Positions 623 to 38,486 are shown, numbered from the stretch's first letter. The stretch is 45,388 bases of DNA from an uncultured bacterium (GCA_964577095.1 CAZNXX010000003.1:1-45388); one strand, 5' to 3'. Made by a program: numbers and translations. Notes: generated by a model not told the origin, from the letters alone.

Positions 623-1132
623 ATGGATATCCGCCGTTACCATATGCCTGGGGCGGTCTATTTCACAACATGCGTCAACTTCGAGCGACGACCGATATTC
701 TCAAATACAGACAGCGCATCCCTCCTGATGGATACGCTGTCCCAGGTGCGGCAAATTCACCCTCACAGACTTCATGCCTACATCATTCTTCCGGACCATT
801 TTCACTTCCTCTTAGAGCCGTTGGATTGCACGATATCAAAAATCATCCAATCTCTGCGCAGAAATTTCACGCTCAGCTACAAACGTCATCATCGAATTCG
901 AGACAACCTGACACTCGCCCAGCATCGTTTCTTCGACCATGTGATCCGAAATCAAGAAGACATGAACAGACATCTGGATTACATACATTTCAACCCGGTC
1001 AAACACGGATTGACAGACAAACCTGAGCGATGGCCCCATTCCAGTTACATGGATTTCGTGAAGCAAGGCCATTACCAGATCGGATGGGGTTGGAAGGAAA
1101 TCCCCGGCATACGCGGAATGAATCCTGAATAA
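623..1132 (+). CDS. REP-associated tyrosine transposase (RAYT, IS200/IS605 Y1 TnpA-like)
   Basis: 169 aa. HUH motif in LPDHFHFLLEP and catalytic Tyr context LDYIHFNPVKHGL..WPHSSY. Flanked by REPs. The start could instead be the ATG at 644. Confidence 0.85.
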   Translation: MDIRRYHMPGAVYFTTCVNFERRPIFSNTDSASLLMDTLSQVRQIHPHRLHAYIILPDHFHFLLEPLDCTISKIIQSLRRNFTLSYKRHHRIRDNLTLAQHRFFDHVIRNQEDMNRHLDYIHFNPVKHGLTDKPERWPHSSYMDFVKQGHYQIGWGWKEIPGIRGMNPE

Positions 1133-6255: not shown

Positions 6256-7458
6256 TCAGCGGCGGAGGGTTTCCTTGAAGCGACGGGTCAGCTCCGGAAC
6301 GATTTCGAACAGGTCGCCGACCAGTCCGTAGGTCGCCACGTTGAAGATTGGCGCGTCCGGATTCTTGTTGATGGCGACGATGATGTCCGAGGACGACATG
6401 CCGACCAGATGCTGGATCGCGCCTGAAATGCCGCAGGCGAAGTAGATTTTGGGCTTGACCGTCTTGCCCGTCTGTCCGACCTGATGCGAATAGGGCACCC
6501 ATCCGGCGTCCACGGCCGCGCGCGACGCGCCCACCGCGCCGCCCAGCGCCTTGGCCAGTTCGCCGAGCATGGCGAAGTGCTCCGGCCCCTTCAGCCCCCG
6601 CCCCCCCGCCACGATGACGTCCGCCTCGACGATGTTCACCGTTTCCTCGAGTTCCTTGACCGTTTCCAGCACGGTCGTGCGGGCCGCAAGGTCCGCGTCC
6701 GCGACGGGCACCCGGACCAGCGTGCCGGCCGGCCGGTCCGGATCCTCGGGCGCCTCCTCCATGACCTTGTGCCGCACCGTGGCCATCTGGGGCCGATGAT
6801 GCTCGCATTTGATGGTGGCCATGATATTGCCGCCGAAAGCGGGCCGCGTCTGCAGGAGGAGCCCGGTGGATGGGTCGATTTCAAGGCCCGTGCAGTCGGC
6901 CGTGAGCCCGGTCGGCACCTGGACGGCTGTCCGCGGGATCAGCGATCGGCCGATCGAAGTGGCGCCGGTGAGCACGATTTCCGGCTTGTATTCCCGGATC
7001 ATCCGCGTCAGGAGGCGGGCGTACGGTTCATCCCGGTAGTCGCGGAGCCCGGGGTGGTCCGCCAGGTAGACCTTGTCCGCGCCGCGCCGGAACAGAAGCC
7101 CGGCCTGCTCCTCCACGCCGGAACCGATCAGCACGGCCGCGAGCTCGCATCCTCGGGCGGCCGCCAGCCCGCGGCCCGCGCCCAGGAGCTCGAACACCAC
7201 GGACTGTATCTCGCCGCCGCGCTGTTCCGCGAACACCCAGACGCCGTTGCTGTCACCGGCAGCCCCGGCAGGCCGTCCGCCGCGGTCCAGGACAATGGCC
7301 TCGACCGGGCAGGGCTCCACGCACGCGCCGCACAGGGTGCATTTGGAAAGATCGATCACGGCCAGCTTGCCCCGCATTTCAATGGCGCCGAAGGGACAGA
7401 CTTTGACGCATTTTTTACAGCCGATGCACTTGTCCTCGATCACCTGAATGGGTGCCAC
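6256..7458 (-). CDS. etfA: Electron transfer flavoprotein alpha subunit with N-terminal 2x[4Fe-4S] ferredoxin domain
   Basis: 400 aa. [12 protein letters not shown] and [12 protein letters not shown] clusters precede the EtfA fold (..[15 protein letters not shown]..). GTG start at 7458 with AGGAGA 7 nt upstream. Confidence 0.9.
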
Positions 7459-7566
7459 GGATGCTTCTCCTAGAATGAATAGTTTTCAGTCTTCAGGGAT
7501 GGAATCATACCGGAAGACGCCCCGGCGTCTTCCTTCTCAGTGCCATGCGGTTCCGGCCTTCGCGCC

Positions 7567-8358
7567 TCAGGGCCCGAACAGCTGGTCCTCGGCCGCGGCC
7601 TTCACGAAAGCCTCGACGACCTGGGCGGTTTCGCCCTCGAATTTCCGGCCGCCGGTCCGGGCCGGGGGCGTGAATATTTTGTGGACATAGGTCGGCGAGC
7701 CCTTGAGCCCGATGCGTTCGGGGTCCGAGCCCGTTTCCTGAACGGTCCAGGTGGGGATGACGGCTTTCTTCGAGGTCATGACGCCCCGAAGGGAGGGCAG
7801 GCGGGGTTCGTTGATGCCCTTGACCACGGAGATCAGGCAGGGCAGGGACGATTCCACCACGTCGAACCCGTCTTCGGTCATCCGCTCCGCGACGATTTTT
7901 TCTGCGGAAAGCTCGCGTATCGCGCGCACGAAAATGATCTGGGGAATGTCGAGCAGGGCCGCGATGCCCGGCCCCACCTGGGCAGTGTCCCCGTCCACGG
8001 CCTGCTTGCCGCACAGGATCAGGTCAAAGGCGCCGACTTTGCGGATGGCCTGGGCCAGGGTGTTCGATGTCGCGAGCGTGTCGGCCCCGGCGAAAGCGCG
8101 GTCGGACAGCAGAATGCCCTCGTCCGCGCCCACCGCGATCGCGTCGCGGAGCACTTGGACGGCCTGGGGCGGCCCCATGGTGAGCGCCGTCACCTTGCCG
8201 CCGCGCTTTTCCTTGATTCGGACCGCCTCTTCGACCGCATACGCGTCGAATGGATTGAGAACGGCCGCGACGCCCTGGCGCACCAGGGTGTTGGTCGCCG
8301 GGTCGATTTTCACGTCCGTGGTGTCCGGGACCTGCTTGACGCAGACGATGAGATTCAT
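7567..8358 (-). CDS. etfB: Electron transfer flavoprotein beta subunit
   Basis: 263 aa, MNLIVCVKQVPDTTDVKIDP.., typical EtfB. ATG preceded by GAGG. Confidence 0.9.
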   Translation of the reverse strand: MNLIVCVKQVPDTTDVKIDPATNTLVRQGVAAVLNPFDAYAVEEAVRIKEKRGGKVTALTMGPPQAVQVLRDAIAVGADEGILLSDRAFAGADTLATSNTLAQAIRKVGAFDLILCGKQAVDGDTAQVGPGIAALLDIPQIIFVRAIRELSAEKIVAERMTEDGFDVVESSLPCLISVVKGINEPRLPSLRGVMTSKKAVIPTWTVQETGSDPERIGLKGSPTYVHKIFTPPARTGGRKFEGETAQVVEAFVKAAAEDQLFGP

Positions 8359-8368
8359 GGAGACCTCA

Positions 8369-8417
8369 GTTCATAGTTCATAGTTCATGGTTCATGGTTC
8401 ATGGTTCATGGTTCATG
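8369..8417. repeat. Tandem heptamer array, 7 x GTTCAT(A/G)
   Basis: Read directly: 2 x GTTCATA then 5 x GTTCATG, head to tail, ending 10 nt from the etfB start codon. Confidence 0.95.
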
Positions 8418-8456
8418 GTCGAAAGAGAAAAGATGGTACCGTTTTCATCTGCTTTC

Positions 8457-8481
8457 AACTATGAACTATGAACCATGAACA
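8457..8481. repeat. Tandem heptamer array, about 3.5 x ATGAAC(T/C/A); inverted partner of 8369-8417
   Basis: AACT ATGAACT ATGAACC ATGAACA is the complement of GTTCATR units, 39 nt from the left arm. Confidence 0.95.
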
Positions 8482-29279: not shown

Positions 29280-30719
29280 TTATGACTTATCTTCCATTAA
29301 ATACTTGTGGATAGACACTGCCGCCTTCTTGCCTGCACCCATGGCCAGAATCACAGTGGCAGCTCCCGTGACAATGTCTCCGCCGGCGAAAACGCCCTTT
29401 TTGGAAGTTGCGCCTGTCGCCTCATCCGCAACGATATAGCCCCACTTGTTCAATTCCAGGCCCGGCGTGGTCAGAGTCAAGAGAGGATTCGGGCCCTGGC
29501 CTATGGCCATGATCACGGTATCCGCCTCCAGAATGTGGTTGGAACCGGCGACCGGCACGGGTTTCCGCCTGCCGGACGCGTCCGGCTCGCCCAGTTCCAT
29601 CCGGATGCATTCCAGGCCCTTTACCCAGCCGTTCTCATCGCCCATAATCTCGACTGGCACGGTCAGAAAAACAGGCCTGACGCCCTCCTCGAAAGCGTTC
29701 TCAATCTCCTCCTCCCGGGCGGGGAGCTGTTCCCTGCTCCGCCGGTACACCAGGTGTACGGTTTCCGCTCCGAGTCTGAGACAGGATCGGGCCGCGTCCA
29801 TGGCCACATTCCCCCCGCCGATCACGGCTATGGTTTTTCCCACATGAACCGGCGTGTCATACTCAGGGAAACGGTACGCTTTCATGAGGTTGACCCGGGT
29901 TAAGAACTCGTTCGAGGAATAAACCCCGTTCAAATTTTCACCCGGAATATTCATGAAATAGGGCAGCCCGGCTCCGGTTCCCACAAAAACCGCGTCATAT
30001 CCCGTACTGAGCAGTTCGTCCACGGTTCCGGACCGGCCGATGACGAAATTGCAGCGGATCTCCACTCCCAGGCTCCGGATGAAATCGCATTCCTGCTCGA
30101 CAATGGATTTGGGCAGGCGGAACTCCGGGATGCCATAGACGAGCACGCCGCCGGGTTTGTGCAAAGCTTCAAAAATAGTCACGCGGTGGCCGAGCTTGGC
30201 CAGTTCGCCGGCCGCGGCCAGGCCCGCGGGCCCGGCGCCGATGACGGCAACGCTTTTGCCAGTCGGCGGAGCCACGGACGGCCTGGAAACGGCCGGCCGC
30301 GATTCTGACGGATCGATCCTGTTATCCTTCAAAGCCGCGGTTTCCCGGTCCGCGGCATAGCGCTCGAGCCTGCCGATGGCCACAGACTGCCCCTTTTTCC
30401 CCAGGATGCAGAGCTTTTCGCACTGCTCCTCCTGGGGGCACACCCGGCCGCACACGGCGGGCAGGCTGTTTTTCAGCTTGAGCGTGGCCGCCGCGGCCGC
30501 GTCCCCGCCTTCCCGGATATGGAGGATGAAACGCGGGATGTCGATGTCCACTGGACAACCCTGAACGCAGAGCGGCTTTTTGCACTGAATGCACCGGCCC
30601 GCTTCGCGCCGGGCCTCCTCCTGCGAGTAGCCCAGCGCCACCTCTTCGAAGTTGCGGATGCGCTCCTCTGCCGGCTGTCTGGGCATTTCGACCCGGTCGC
30701 CTTTTCCTGGGCCGCTCAT
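29280..30719 (-). CDS. nfnB: NADPH-dependent glutamate synthase beta chain-like oxidoreductase (NfnB/SudA type)
   Basis: 479 aa from the ATG at 30719 (ATGA overlap with the upstream stop). N-terminal Fe-S Cys motifs CIQCKKPLCVQGCP and ..CGRVCPQEEQCEKLC... Two Rossmann GxGxxG motifs (VIGAGPAGLAAA, VIGGGNVAMDAA). Confidence 0.85.
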   Translation of the reverse strand: MSGPGKGDRVEMPRQPAEERIRNFEEVALGYSQEEARREAGRCIQCKKPLCVQGCPVDIDIPRFILHIREGGDAAAAATLKLKNSLPAVCGRVCPQEEQCEKLCILGKKGQSVAIGRLERYAADRETAALKDNRIDPSESRPAVSRPSVAPPTGKSVAVIGAGPAGLAAAGELAKLGHRVTIFEALHKPGGVLVYGIPEFRLPKSIVEQECDFIRSLGVEIRCNFVIGRSGTVDELLSTGYDAVFVGTGAGLPYFMNIPGENLNGVYSSNEFLTRVNLMKAYRFPEYDTPVHVGKTIAVIGGGNVAMDAARSCLRLGAETVHLVYRRSREQLPAREEEIENAFEEGVRPVFLTVPVEIMGDENGWVKGLECIRMELGEPDASGRRKPVPVAGSNHILEADTVIMAIGQGPNPLLTLTTPGLELNKWGYIVADEATGATSKKGVFAGGDIVTGAATVILAMGAGKKAAVSIHKYLMEDKS

Positions 30720-31564
30720 TGTTTCAGCCCCAGCCTGCAGGCATGGTCGCGGTTCGCCCGGGATTCCCGGTCCGCGTACATCCGCGAGCGCTTCAGGAGT
30801 TCGCCGAACTCCACCTGATGGCCGTCGAATTCCGGGCCGTCGACACAGACGAATTTCACCTTGCCGCCGACCGTAATGCGGCATCCGCCGCACATGCCGG
30901 TTCCGTCCACCATCAGCGTGTTCAGGCTGACCACGGTGGGGATTCCGGCGGGCCGCGTGACGTCGCTCACGGCTTTCATCATGGCGCCCGGACCGATGGC
31001 CCAGACGCGGTCTATTTTCCCGCCGGTGGTGATGAGTTCCGTGAGTCTGCCCGACACGAATCCCCTGGTTCCGGATGAGCCGTCGTCCGTGCAGACGTGC
31101 AATTCGTCGCTGACCCGCCGGGTCTCTTCCTCGAGTATGAGCAGGTCCTTCGAGCGCGCCCCGAGAATGGAGTGCACTCGGTTCCCGGCCGCTTTCAGCG
31201 CCTTGGTGATGGGGTACATGGGCGCGGCTCCAACGCCGCCGCCGATGCAGACCACGGTTCCGTAATTTTCAATCTCGGACGGCTGCCCCAGGGGACCCAG
31301 AACGTCCGTGACGCGCTCCCCCTGCTCCAGGCCGCAGAGCTTCTTCGTGGACAGGCCGGCTTCCTGAATGATGAGGATGATGGTTCCCGCGGCCGCGTCG
31401 AAATCCGCGATGGTCAGGGGAATGCGTTCCGCGACTTCGTCCCTGCGGACGACGACAAACTGGCCGGGTCTCGCGTGCGACGCGATGTCCGGGCAGTGCA
31501 GGTCGAACCGGACGATGCCGGGAGCGAGAACGGTTTTCCGGAGAATTTCATTCAGTAGGGGCAT
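30716..31564 (-). CDS. nfnA: Ferredoxin-NADP+ reductase-like subunit (NfnA/SudB, PyrK-like)
   Basis: 282 aa from the ATG at 31564 (MPLLNEILRKTV..). FAD/NAD binding fold and the C-terminal [2Fe-2S] motif ..DGTGMCGGCRITVGGKVKFVCVDGPEF... The longest-ORF start at 31621 lies inside the heptamer array and is rejected. Confidence 0.85.
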   Translation of the reverse strand: MPLLNEILRKTVLAPGIVRFDLHCPDIASHARPGQFVVVRRDEVAERIPLTIADFDAAAGTIILIIQEAGLSTKKLCGLEQGERVTDVLGPLGQPSEIENYGTVVCIGGGVGAAPMYPITKALKAAGNRVHSILGARSKDLLILEEETRRVSDELHVCTDDGSSGTRGFVSGRLTELITTGGKIDRVWAIGPGAMMKAVSDVTRPAGIPTVVSLNTLMVDGTGMCGGCRITVGGKVKFVCVDGPEFDGHQVEFGELLKRSRMYADRESRANRDHACRLGLKQ

Positions 31565-31603
31565 TTTATTTTTTCCGGTAGCCGCAGCCTTCAGGCTGCG
31601 CTC

Positions 31604-31698
31604 GTTCAGTTTATAGTTCAAGGTTCAAAGTTCAAAGAAAAAAAGTTCATGGTTCAAGGTAAAAGAAGTTCCGGGTTCCGGGCTCCGAGTTCCGGGTT
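31604..31698. repeat. Compound tandem heptamer array (GTTCAAR, GTTCATG, GTTCCGG variants)
   Basis: GTTCAGT..GTTCAAG GTTCAAA GTTCAAA G(A)7 GTTCATG GTTCAAG..GTTCCGG GTTCCGG GCTCCGA GTTCCGG GTTAATA. Confidence 0.9.
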
Positions 31699-31735
31699 AA
31701 TAAGAAATCGACATCGTCAATCGACTGTCGTACAT

Positions 31736-32014
31736 CATGAGTGTCCGGTTAAAATGGAGACAGTCTATTTTATACTTCAGTGTCCATTCGATTTAACATC
31801 TGAATAATCAGAAACGACTAAGAATCATGATCCATTATAAGATTGTCCGGGTAGACAATGGGTGTCTTCGCGAGGGACTCCGCGATGCGGAGTCCCGAAG
31901 CGATCTCGGCTGTTTTTTTTTGAGATTGCCACGCCCCGCTGCGCGGGGCTCGCAATGACACACTCCTTTTCATGACTGGTACAAAATTACTATTCATTTA
32001 ACCGGGCACTCATG
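31736..32014. mobile_element. Foldback / MITE-like element with 18-bp terminal inverted repeats
   Basis: CATGAGTGTCCGGTTAAA (31736-31753) matches the reverse complement of TTTAACCGGGCACTCATG (31997-32014) at 17/18. The AT-rich interior has two GC hairpins (31874-31896 GGGACTCCGC-GAT-GCGGAGTCCC; 31932-31948 GCCCCGC-TGC-GCGGGGC) and a T9 run (31913-31921). No ORF. Confidence 0.5.
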
Positions 32015-32084
32015 GTAGTACATCGTCGGTGAATGACCGTATCGTGAGGACGGGGATTCCCATAGGCCGGGATGAAGCTCAACA

Positions 32085-32142
32085 CGGAAACCGGAACTCC
32101 CAACATTCTCAACCCGGAACCCGGAACTCGGAACCCTGAACT
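32085..32142. repeat. Tandem heptamer array, CGGAAC(C/T)-type; inverted partner of 31668-31695
   Basis: CGGAAAC CGGAACT ... CGGAACC CGGAACT CGGAACC CTGAACT. It overlaps the last codons and the stop (32109-32111) of the fumarate hydratase beta gene. Confidence 0.9.
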
Positions 32143-32693
32143 CTGTACTTCTCCACCCCTTCCCGGTACAGGTCCCCCCCGTGGCAGTCGTTGACGACGA
32201 CCAGCGGCATGTCCTCCACCTCGAGCCTGTACACGGCCTCCGGGCCGAGGTCCTCATACGCGATCAGCACGGACCGCTTCACGGTTCCGGCGTAGAGCGC
32301 GGCCGCGCCGCCTGTCGCGGCGAAATACACTGCGCCGCAGCGTGTCATCGCCTCTGTGATTTCCGGGGACCGGTTGCCTTTTCCGATCATGCCTTTCAGC
32401 CCGCGCTCGAGCAGGGGCAACGTGTACGGGTCCATGCGGTAGCTCGAAGTGGGGCCGATGGGCCCGATGACCCGGCCCGGGGCCGCGGGCACGGGGCCCG
32501 CGTAGAAGAGCACCTGCCCGGCCAGTCCGAACGGCAGGGGTTCGTCCTGCCGTATCCTTTCGGCCATGCGCTGATGCGCGGCGTCGCGCGCCGTGTACAC
32601 CGTGCCCGAGAGCAGGACGAGATCCCCGCTCCGCAGGCTCGCGGTTTCGGACTCTCCCAGCGGAGTGCGGATCCGTTTGGCCGGGCCGCTCAC
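32109..32693 (-). CDS. Class I (Fe-S) fumarate hydratase / tartrate dehydratase-type hydrolyase, beta subunit
   Basis: 194 aa from the GTG at 32693 (GTGA overlap with the alpha stop). ..SGTVYTARDAAHQRM.., ..GPIGPTSSYRMDPY.. and ..MIGKGNRS... The C-terminal tail ..SEFRVPG is encoded by the heptamer array. Confidence 0.85.
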   Translation of the reverse strand: MSGPAKRIRTPLGESETASLRSGDLVLLSGTVYTARDAAHQRMAERIRQDEPLPFGLAGQVLFYAGPVPAAPGRVIGPIGPTSSYRMDPYTLPLLERGLKGMIGKGNRSPEITEAMTRCGAVYFAATGGAAALYAGTVKRSVLIAYEDLGPEAVYRLEVEDMPLVVVNDCHGGDLYREGVEKYRVQGSEFRVPG

Positions 32694-38438: not shown

Positions 38439-38486
38439 ACGTTAACACGTTAGCACGTTAGCACGTTTGAACGTTATAACGTGTCA
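38439..38486. repeat. Six tandem 8-bp repeats ACGTTNNN
   Basis: ACGTTAAC ACGTTAGC ACGTTAGC ACGTTTGA ACGTTATA ACGTGTCA. The array overlaps the stop codon of the protease gene. Confidence 0.9.

What the first reader, a model, noticed from the sequence alone, without database searches (positions are those of the whole stretch)
31604..32142. Third heptamer-bracketed locus: compound array upstream of nfnA, with a partner array that encodes the C-terminus and stop of the fumarase beta subunit
The left array (31604-31698) mixes GTTCAAR, GTTCATG and GTTCCGG units and is interrupted by an A7 run. The right array (32085-32142) carries the complement of the GTTCCGG block only. The fumarate hydratase beta ORF reads into the array, so its last residues (..VQGSEFRVPG*) and its stop codon are repeat-derived. 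This means the array inserted or expanded at the 3' end of a conserved gene and replaced its native terminus. The arms enclose about 390 bp holding a separate foldback element.
Basis: seen in the sequence. Interest (0 to 1): 0.6.

Follow-up and report, generated by a model that had tools for sequence, protein, structure and literature searches.

The report
Heptamer-armed hairpin between fumarase and nfnA
The two mirror-image runs of 7-base repeats between the fumarase and nfnA genes are one copy of a hairpin-forming repeat found about 170 times in this uncultured bacterium; it supplies the last ten amino acids and the stop codon of the fumarase beta subunit, and it shares its arms with cassettes that carry a small "23S rRNA intervening-sequence protein" gene.

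Summary
The left compound array (31604-31702) and the right array (32107-32148) are real. The fumarase beta gene ends VQGSEFRVPG-TGA inside the right array.

The locus is not special. The genome holds 292 GTTC-phased arrays (2 in a shuffled genome) at 171 loci. Neighbouring arrays lie 5'-(GTTCNNR)n..loop..(YNNGAAC)n-3' in 78 cases and the reverse way in 1. The modal arm is four units plus a GTTRA cap. Eighteen genes end in such an array.

Three congeners carry an array at the same codon of fumB but with other heptamer flavours (tails VQSL*, VHSS*). More distant orthologues have no array and end 2-5 residues later.

The enclosed "foldback" is a 279-bp MITE with a 9-bp target duplication. It is absent in a congener.

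The same arm types flank PF05635 (S23p) genes in this genus and in other phyla. Each of this genome's three S23p genes has flanking arrays of a type that also occurs as a dispersed array family.

My best reading is a gene-less, IVS-like hairpin cassette that forms a roughly 35-bp RNA stem and is probably cut by RNase III. That function is untested.

This scan found the same class earlier on other DNA. Heptamer-array pairs are already described in Geobacter, Xanthomonas and cyanobacteria.

The parts
32109..32693 (-). fumarate hydratase class I beta subunit gene (194 codons, GTG start overlapping the alpha stop). Residues 185-194 and the stop are array-encoded.
   Evidence: PF05683 E 2.4e-53; PDB 2isb/7xky alignments end at residues 177-182; ORF list
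32107..32148 (-). 5' arm of the hairpin on the gene-sense strand: GTACAGA GTTCAGG GTTCCGA GTTCCGG GTTCCGG + cap GTTGAGA. TGA at 32111-32109 lies in the cap.
   Evidence: pairs with 31668-31702 in the MFE fold, arm duplex -56.9 kcal/mol
32084..32106 (-). degenerate second short GTTCCGG/TTTCCGT block with its own GTTGAG cap (remnant of a nested arm)
   Evidence: read directly
31736..32014 (.). 279-bp MITE nested in the loop. TIRs CATGAGTGTCCGGTTAAAAT (31736-31755) and ATTTAACCGGGCACTCATG (31996-32014). 9-bp target duplication gtcgtacat (31727-31735) / gtagtacat (32015-32023), 8 of 9 identical.
   Evidence: 4 other copies (C9, C66, C13, C136); the C13 copy has a perfect 9-bp duplication cctttacgt; absent from the orthologous spacer of congener G002
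31668..31702 (-). 3' arm partner of the CCGR pair; on the sense strand TATTAAC CCGGAAC TCGGAGC CCGGAAC CCGGAAC
31604..31667 (-). outer, now orphan 3' arm of an older nested hairpin (sense strand: ttcttttac CTTGAAC CATGAAC T7C TTTGAAC TTTGAAC CTTGAAC TATAAAC TGAAC). Its GTTCAAR 5' partner survives in congener G002.
   Evidence: alignment of own (MITE removed) with G002 and G003
31577..31601 (.). copy of a small palindromic repeat, GGTAGCCGCAGCCTTCAGGCTGCGC, just upstream of nfnA
   Evidence: 14 copies in the genome, 10 within 150 bp of a heptamer array; conserved at the same place in G002
30716..31564 (-). nfnA-like gene (ferredoxin-NADP reductase-type small subunit), ATG at 31564-31562
   Evidence: PF10418 + PF00175

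Best explanation
This is one gene-less copy of a genus-specific family of heptamer-armed hairpin cassettes. Shown: each cassette is 5'-(GTTCNNR)~4-GTTRA cap - unique loop - cap' - (YNNGAAC)~4-3'. The family sits mostly between genes, preferentially at gene 3' ends. Here the 5' arm abuts codon 184 of fumB. GTTCCGR repeats contain no stop codon in any of the six frames (direct reading of the unit), so the gene reads through four units and stops at the TGA of the cap. The locus is a palimpsest: an older outer GTTCAAR pair has lost its 5' arm, an inner GTTCCGR pair is intact, and a MITE has landed in the loop. Arms at orthologous junctions are rewritten between species, and each species has its own dominant flavour. 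The same arm types bracket PF05635 (S23p) genes. Inferred: on the fumAB-nfnAB transcript the arms form a roughly 35-bp double-stranded RNA stem. By analogy with S23p-bearing 23S rRNA intervening sequences, this stem is cut by RNase III or acts as a 3'-end stabiliser, so it uncouples the fumarase and nfn messages. More speculative: the gene-less hairpins are non-autonomous relatives of the S23p cassettes.
For: Family and polarity: 292 arrays against 2 in a shuffled genome; neighbouring arrays +- 78 against -+ 1; modal 4 units, caps GTTGA 50, GTTAA 37 and GTTGG 20. Position: 224/292 arrays fall outside my gene calls, which cover 84% of the genome; loci lie in 31 of 198 convergent, 88 of 1864 co-directional and 9 of 200 divergent spacers. 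18 arrays overlap a gene's 3' end, always on the gene's own strand. Congeners: tails VQSL* (GTTCAAA array) and VHSS* (GTTCATA array) at the same codon. Flavour counts CCGR/ATR/AAR: G000 157/56/17, G001 34/13/158, G002 38/0/113, G003 33/182/11. Arms pair in the MFE fold. S23p link: a GTTCCGR array lies 31 nt upstream of the S23p ORF at own C320, where the contig end cuts the ORF and only the 5' side is visible; complete cassettes at the gpsA|asnS site of G002 (GTTCCGR arms) and G003 (GTTCATR arms); 47 of 71 relatives of this S23p in other phyla have significant inverted arms, 44 of them period-7, mostly GTTNNNN-type; arms follow the protein clade within one Aequorivita genome; own genome's 3 S23p genes match 3 dispersed array families. 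Precedent: the Coxiella IVS has a 28-bp stem and tandem heptamers and is cut by RNase III (PMC4990558).
Against: G.U versus A.C mismatches show no sense-strand bias (75 vs 62), so RNA-level selection is not demonstrated. A DNA-level role (protein binding, cruciform) fits the data equally well. No heptamer-armed IVS sits in the 23S genes of the two congeners that have one assembled. G001 and G002 are dominated by GTTCAAR hairpins, but no S23p with GTTCAAR arms was found. The S23p-arm correlation is partly confounded by shared descent.
Confidence: 0.55

Rival explanations
1. DNA-level sites: the paired arrays are binding sites for a nucleoid or architectural protein (IHF/HU-like), or they extrude as cruciforms. 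This was proposed for the paired tandem-repeat sites of Geobacter metallireducens. No RNA role is needed.
For: The architecture matches the Geobacter class 1-3 sites: 3-5 tandem 7-9-nt units, in pairs on opposite strands, at variable distance (PMC2700814). The strict sequence polarity of 78:1 suggests sequence-specific recognition rather than a mere stem. There is no G.U strand bias.
Against: The family is enriched at gene 3' ends and depleted between divergent genes, which suits transcripts better than promoters. The only experimentally studied relative, the Coxiella IVS, acts as RNA.
Confidence: 0.2
2. Neutral selfish or slippage DNA: heptamer simple-sequence repeats arise by polymerase slippage and recombination among GTTC units and are tolerated only where they do no harm. 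The inverted pairing is a by-product of palindrome-driven duplication.
For: Heptamers are the commonest long SSR class in prokaryotes (Mrazek 2007, as cited in PMC4679880). Copy number differs between congeners and cluster mates. The hybrid first unit GTTCAGG looks like a recombinant of GTTCAAG and GTTCCGG. An orphan arm decays once its partner is lost.
Against: Slippage alone does not explain the 78:1 polarity, the 4-unit mode with a defined cap, the identical architecture in many phyla, or the tie to S23p genes.
Confidence: 0.15
3. Bidirectional intrinsic terminator or attenuator between fumB and nfnA.
For: Across the family, flanks are A-rich 5' of the hairpin and T-rich 3' of it. A T4 run lies within 12 nt downstream in 16 of 75 pairs, against 6% background. 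The family is enriched between convergent genes.
Against: The consensus terminator scan found none at this locus. Stems of about 35 bp with 20-400-nt loops are unlike intrinsic terminators. Nearly 80% of pairs lack a T-run.
Confidence: 0.07
4. Contingency (phase-variable) locus that tunes the fumarase C-terminus.
For: Tail length and sequence vary among close relatives: 3, 4 and 10 residues.
Against: The tail lies beyond the conserved domain. The same arrays are mostly intergenic genome-wide. Changing the unit number changes the frame, but in this frame it only moves the stop codon to the cap.
Confidence: 0.03

Closest known systems
Paired tandem-repeat 'global regulator binding sites' (classes 1-3) and four-heptamer elements of Geobacter metallireducens (Aklujkar et al. 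2009, PMC2700814)
   Same: 3-5 tandem 7-9-nt units, occurring as pairs on opposite strands at variable distance, tens of copies, intergenic, function unknown
   Different: Other unit sequences (GTTGCTYN, TCTCCGTS, MTYCTGA, GGACCGG). No link to S23p genes or to gene termini was reported. IHF/HU binding was only conjectured there.
GGGNATC heptamer repeats of Xanthomonas and Nostoc (Rehm et al. 2015, PMC4692102) and cyanobacterial STRR heptamers
   Same: [quoted passage not shown]
   Different: Those were explained by G-quadruplex formation. GTTCNNR has no G-tracts yet shows the same four-unit mode, so G4 cannot be the general reason.
S23p-bearing 23S rRNA intervening sequences (Coxiella burnetii, Leptospira; Warrier et al. 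2016, PMC4990558)
   Same: A 28-bp stem built from terminal inverted repeats that contain tandem heptamers of variable copy number. RNase III cuts in the stem. In cassettes of this genus with the same arm types, the loop carries a PF05635 gene.
   Different: This copy lies in an mRNA spacer, not in 23S rRNA, and its loop has no S23p gene. The 23S genes of two congeners have no such insert.
TAACTGA direct repeats of marine Beggiatoaceae, cyanobacteria and Bacteroidetes (MacGregor 2015, PMC4679880)
   Same: Heptamer arrays of 2-6 units, intergenic, patchy cross-phylum distribution with no known transfer mechanism
   Different: Those are almost all direct repeats lying just upstream of start codons, not inverted pairs.
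REP / REPIN elements mobilised by RAYT transposases
   Same: Dispersed intergenic doublets that form hairpins, enriched at gene 3' ends
   Different: REP units are themselves short palindromes, and REPs flank the RAYT gene. Here the arms are tandem heptamers, and none of the nine PF01797 genes has arrays within 1.2 kb.

Membership tests
Inverted pairs of tandem heptamer arrays (heptamer-armed intergenic hairpins) | Tandem units of 7 nt, three or more copies, far above chance | tested here: met
   292 arrays against 2 in a shuffled genome; window 31 matches against 4.9 expected
Inverted pairs of tandem heptamer arrays (heptamer-armed intergenic hairpins) | Two arrays on opposite strands with a variable spacer and one fixed polarity | tested here: met
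   +- 78 against -+ 1, spacers 7-418 nt; this locus 411 nt
Inverted pairs of tandem heptamer arrays (heptamer-armed intergenic hairpins) | Preference for about four units | tested here: met
   mode 4 (118/275), then 5 (77) and 3 (49); this locus 4 + cap on both arms
Inverted pairs of tandem heptamer arrays (heptamer-armed intergenic hairpins) | Intergenic, favouring gene 3' ends and avoiding divergent spacers | tested here: met
   based on my own crude gene calls
S23p / PF05635 IVS-type cassette | Stem of about 28 bp made of tandem heptamer inverted repeats | tested here: met
   Coxiella description in PMC4990558
S23p / PF05635 IVS-type cassette | PF05635 ORF in the loop | tested here: not met
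   The loop holds only a MITE and no ORF over 59 aa. Met elsewhere: G002 L157 and G003 L153 (complete cassettes), own C320 (5' side only, ORF cut by the contig end).
S23p / PF05635 IVS-type cassette | Inserted in 23S rRNA helix 25 or 45 | tested here: not met
   The locus lies between fumB and nfnA; the 23S genes of G002 and G003 carry no heptamer arrays
S23p / PF05635 IVS-type cassette | Excision by RNase III | not testable with these tools
REP/REPIN-RAYT | Repeats flank a PF01797 (RAYT) gene | tested here: not met
   9 PF01797 matches, none with arrays within 1.2 kb
MITE (interior element 31736-32014) | Terminal inverted repeats, target-site duplication, several copies, no transposase ORF | tested here: met
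   TIRs of 20 and 19 nt, 9-bp TSD (8/9 here, 9/9 at C13), 5 copies, empty site in G002
G-quadruplex-forming heptamer repeats (Rehm et al.) | Four consecutive G-tracts | tested here: not met
   GTTCCGR and its complement have no run of three or more G
Rfam RNA families | Match at the gathering score | tested here: not met
   0 matches in the whole window

The most novel reading that the evidence does not exclude
The hundreds of gene-less heptamer hairpins are non-autonomous partners of S23p cassettes. The pentameric S23p four-helix-bundle protein would recognise the five-unit arm (four heptamers plus cap) of its own cassette type, and would drive or protect the spread and rewriting of matching hairpins. 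RNase III cleavage of the stems would punctuate operons. This would give a function to PF05635 proteins and explain the bacterial heptamer repeats (STRR, Xanthomonas, Geobacter) that have been unexplained for decades.
Probability: 0.3. Interest if true: 0.8.

Novelty: new member of a known kind. Interest (0 to 1): 0.5.

Why it matters
Heptamer arrays are the commonest long simple repeats in bacteria, and no function is established for them. This genus offers a clean natural experiment. There are three related flavours sharing a GTTC core, each species has a different dominant flavour, arms are rewritten at orthologous junctions, and three S23p genes in one genome are matched by three dispersed array families. 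The four-unit preference without any G-tracts argues against the G-quadruplex explanation given for Xanthomonas. For annotation, the practical point is that such arrays are open in all frames, so they extend or fuse ORFs and supply repeat-derived C-termini and stop codons (18 genes here).

Tried and rejected
- Rfam at gathering thresholds: no match in the window.
- RAYT/REP model: nine PF01797 genes, none flanked by arrays.
- RNA strand test: G.U versus A.C mismatches relative to the sense strand were 75 vs 62, not significant.
- 23S IVS: the 23S genes of G002 and G003 have no heptamer arrays. G000 and G001 have no 23S assembled.
- Promoter and terminator consensus scan of 31450-32250: one weak promoter-like hit on the + strand inside the MITE, no terminator.
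I used cluster mates of the protein instead.
- Gene calling: my first two home-made gene callers mis-called this very region. The third is still crude, with 2672 genes, so the context counts are approximate.
- 'Dominant flavour rules every locus': rejected. At the 8369-8480 locus the flavours are own ATR, G001 AAR, G002 CCGR+AAR and G003 CCGR.
- Literature search for GTTCCGG/CCGGAAC as words found nothing relevant.

Full report
OBSERVATION.
- The left array is compound. On the + strand it reads GTTCAAG GTTCAAA GTTCAAA (31616-31636), G plus A7 (31637-31644), GTTCATG GTTCAAG (31645-31658), a 9-nt spacer, then GTTCCGG GTTCCGG GCTCCGA GTTCCGG (31668-31695) and GTTAATA (31696-31702).
- The right array, read on the - strand from 32148, is GTACAGA GTTCAGG GTTCCGA GTTCCGG GTTCCGG GTTGAGA (to 32107). 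A short degenerate second block follows, down to 32084.
- TRF reports both arrays.
- The two-unit pattern occurs 31 times in the window against 4.9 +/- 2.3 in shuffles.
- The - strand ORF 32693..32109 is the class I fumarate hydratase beta subunit (PF05683, E 2.4e-53). It follows the alpha subunit (PF05681). Downstream come an nfnA-like gene (start 31564) and an nfnB-like gene.
- The beta ORF ends ...EGVEKYR VQGSEFRVPG. These last ten codons are GTT CAG GGT TCC GAG TTC CGG GTT CCG GGT, followed by TGA. The stop (32111-32109) lies in the cap unit GTTGAGA.

IT IS A GENOME-WIDE FAMILY. The window is the first 45,388 bases of contig C3 (49,161 bases) of a 3.54-Mb, 413-contig assembly with 61% G+C.
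- A phase-aware scan finds 292 arrays with at least three in-phase GTTC units, against 2 in a mononucleotide-shuffled genome. They group into 171 loci.
- There are three flavours: GTTCCGR, GTTCATR and GTTCAAR.
- Neighbouring arrays within 600 bp are '+ then -' 78 times and '- then +' once. The element is therefore 5'-(GTTCNNR)n..loop..(YNNGAAC)n-3' on both strands and essentially never the reverse.
- The modal arm has four units (118 of 275). It ends towards the loop in a cap: GTTGA 50, GTTAA 37, GTTGG 20.
- Loops are unique sequences of 7-418 nt.

GENE CONTEXT. These counts rest on my own crude gene calls (third attempt).
- 224 of 292 arrays are intergenic, although 84% of the genome is called coding.
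- Loci occupy 31 of 198 convergent spacers, 88 of 1864 co-directional spacers and 9 of 200 divergent spacers.
- Eighteen arrays overlap a gene's 3' end or are followed by its stop within 12 nt. In every case the array is on the gene's own strand.
- The fumB case is therefore one of many. GTTCCGR repeats have no stop codon in any of the six frames (direct reading of the unit). A gene that abuts the 5' arm reads on until the cap's TGA or TAA, or runs into the loop.

THE GENE TERMINUS.
- Homology to solved fumarase beta chains ends at residues 177-182 of 194. The Pfam match ends at residue 178.
- Orthologues elsewhere in the order end ...EGMxxY plus 2-5 residues, with no array after them. This includes the other genus of the same family.
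- In the two congeners that have the gene, an array begins at exactly the same codon but differs in flavour. G002 reads EGVERYR|VQSL* with GTTCAAA GTTTATA GTTCAAA GTTCAAA. G003 reads EGVEKYK|VHSS* with GTTCATA GTTCATA GTTCATG GTTCATA.
- Two more members of the 90%-identity protein cluster, from other public assemblies, end VPGSGFRVPC* and VPG*. Those tails are what four CCGR units plus a GTTGA cap, and one unit plus a cap, would encode.
- The array therefore took over the last few codons before the genus diversified. It has since changed in flavour and length. This also rules out an assembly artefact.

HISTORY OF THIS SPACER. I aligned the own spacer (MITE removed) with those of G002 and G003.
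- The nfnA-proximal part, ACTTCTTTTACCTTGAACCATGAACTTTTTTTC(TTTGAAC)n...GCAGCCTGAAGGCTGC, is orthologous and nearly identical in own and G002. The TTTGAAC copy number differs.
- In G002 the outer GTTCAAR pair is intact and the inner CCGR 3' arm has decayed to TCGCAAT CCGGAAT CCGAAAT CCGGGAC.
- In the own genome the inner CCGR pair is intact and the outer 3' arm is orphaned and decaying (CTTGAAC TATAAAC).
- The first own unit, GTTCAGG, looks like a GTTCAAG/GTTCCGG hybrid.
- My reading (inference): the ancestor had nested hairpins. Recombination or slippage among GTTC units then removed one 5' arm in each lineage while keeping the junction with the gene.

THE 'FOLDBACK' IS A MITE.
- The element spans 31736-32014. 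Its terminal inverted repeats are CATGAGTGTCCGGTTAAAAT and ATTTAACCGGGCACTCATG.
- It is flanked by a 9-bp duplication, gtcgtacat / gtagtacat.
- Four other copies exist. The C13 copy has a perfect 9-bp duplication.
- The orthologous G002 spacer lacks it.
- It carries two hairpin modules that also occur separately elsewhere in the genome.

FOLDING. As RNA in the gene sense, the minimum-free-energy fold pairs 32145-32108 with 31705-31660 and beyond. The two-arm duplex is -56.9 kcal/mol, and the MITE folds on itself inside the loop.

DISTRIBUTION AND TURNOVER.
- Four-unit GTTCNNR arrays number 179, 125, 87 and 124 in the four genomes of the genus, and 18 in the sister genus. In the 36 other genomes of the order and phylum searched there are none, apart from 1 and 4 matches in two genomes of the order.
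- Flavour counts (CCGR/ATR/AAR) are 157/56/17 in G000, 34/13/158 in G001, 38/0/113 in G002 and 33/182/11 in G003. Each species has its own dominant flavour.
- At fumB the arm matches the species' dominant flavour. At the 8369-8480 locus it does not. Turnover is therefore locus by locus.
- The exact motif (GTTCCGR)4GTTRA also occurs in MAGs of Planctomycetota, Acidobacteriota, Verrucomicrobiota, Bacteroidota, Chloroflexota, Gemmatimonadota, Burkholderiales and others. The polarity is the same there: 52 '+-' against 3 '-+'.

LINK TO S23p (PF05635). Earlier notes of this scan suggested this link. I tested it here.
- The own genome has three PF05635 genes. All three are flanked by short-unit tandem arrays.
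  - C320 has GTTCCGG GTTCCGG GTTCCGA 31 nt upstream of the ORF. The ORF is cut by the contig end, so only the 5' side is seen.
  - C127 lies between inverted GATYNNN heptamer arrays.
  - C68 is followed by ACGTTNNN octamers.
- Each of those three array types is also a dispersed family in this genome: GTTCNNR about 290 arrays, GATYNNN 41 and ACGTTNNN 39, each with 0 in shuffles.
- At the orthologous gpsA|asnS spacer, G002 has a complete cassette with GTTCCGR arms and G003 has one with GTTCATR arms.
- The G002 and own proteins are 39/41 identical. The G003 protein is 56% identical, yet it is their sister in the tree. Protein and arms have diverged together.
- Of 29 PF05635 loci sampled across the order, about 16 have inverted 7-8-nt arrays.
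- Of 71 relatives of the GTTCCGR-cassette protein in other phyla, 47 have significant inverted arms. Of these 47, 44 have period 7, and the arms are mostly GTTNNNN-type. The units are GTT[CT]CGA in Chloracidobacterium, Blastocatellia and Verrucomicrobiae, GTTTATW in Flavobacterium, GTTRCAR in Aequorivita and GTTTTTA in Chitinophagaceae.
- In Aequorivita todarodis two paralogues from different protein clades carry the arms of their clade, not of their host.
- The protein matches the pentameric Xanthomonas XCC0516 structure, 2gsc (E 6e-17).
- The Coxiella 23S intervening sequence is the one experimentally studied case. It has a 28-bp stem, tandem heptamers of variable copy number upstream of S23p, and RNase III cleavage in the stem (PMC4990558).

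MECHANISM.
- Shown: the architecture, polarity, position, turnover, gene-tail capture, MITE nesting and association with S23p cassettes.
- Inferred: the arms form a long dsRNA stem in the fumAB-nfnAB transcript and serve as an RNase III site or a 3'-end protector.
- Speculative: S23p recognises its cognate five-unit arm and is involved in spreading or maintaining the hairpins.
- Against over-reading:
  - No sense-strand G.U bias was found (75 vs 62).
  - The 23S genes of the congeners carry no such insert.
  - No S23p with GTTCAAR arms was found in the AAR-rich genomes.
  - Part of the protein-arm correlation reflects shared descent.
- A DNA-level role remains a live rival. An intrinsic-terminator role fits only the roughly 21% of pairs that have a T-run, and does not fit this locus.

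COMPARISON AND NOVELTY.
- The architecture equals the paired tandem-repeat sites of Geobacter metallireducens (PMC2700814).
- It shares the four-unit preference and gene-end position of the Xanthomonas/Nostoc GGGNATC repeats (PMC4692102).
- It is therefore a new member of a known but unexplained kind.
- Because GTTCNNR has no G-tracts, the four-unit mode cannot be due to G-quadruplexes.
- This scan has reported the same class, and the S23p link, on other genomes before. My searches found no paper that states that link.

LIMITS.

Noticed in passing
window 38439-38478: Array of five ACGTTNNN octamers. It belongs to a second dispersed family (39 arrays in the genome, 0 in shuffles), the same type that follows the PF05635 gene at C68:11398-11706.
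   Followed up: partly
G000 C127:124-707 and 40 other sites: Third dispersed family of GATYNNN heptamer arrays (GATCTCA GATCAAC GATTGCA GATTGAA...), mostly '+-' pairs. One pair encloses a PF05635 gene (C127:267-551).
   Followed up: partly
window 31577-31601: Small palindromic repeat GGTAGCCGCAGCCTKMAGGCTGCGC. 14 copies in the genome, 10 within 150 bp of a heptamer array; three tandem copies at C166:6109-6270.
   Followed up: partly
G000 C76:7247-7936: GTTCCGR arms enclosing a 121-aa ORF (7451-7816) with no Pfam match. Possibly a second kind of cargo in the same cassette type.
   Followed up: partly
G000 C53:7820-11092, C246:2331-3917, C170:2113-5544, C21:5884-7047: Long called ORFs that read straight through several heptamer arrays. 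These are likely artificial gene fusions or extensions, because CCGR arrays are open in all six frames.
   Followed up: no
window 677-931: Weak PF01797 (Y1 transposase, IS200/RAYT-like) match, one of nine in the genome. None of the nine has heptamer arrays nearby.
   Followed up: yes
window 31914-31961 (inside the MITE): The hairpin module GAGATTGCCACGCCCCGC..GCGGGGCTCGCAATGAC also occurs on its own at several other contigs (C93, C83, C59, C19). In two MITE copies it has an extra insert of about 20-45 nt in its loop.
   Followed up: no
window 8369-8480 and its orthologues (L174-L176): At this other heptamer locus all four congeners have an array abutting the same gene start region, but with different flavours (own ATR, G001 AAR, G002 CCGR+AAR, G003 CCGR).
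   Followed up: yes
L004-L018 (relatives outside the genus): Downstream of fumB the other genera carry a gene starting ...LGLGNTILSDDGVG (hydrogenase maturation protease-like) instead of nfnA, so the fumB-nfnA adjacency is specific to this genus.
   Followed up: no
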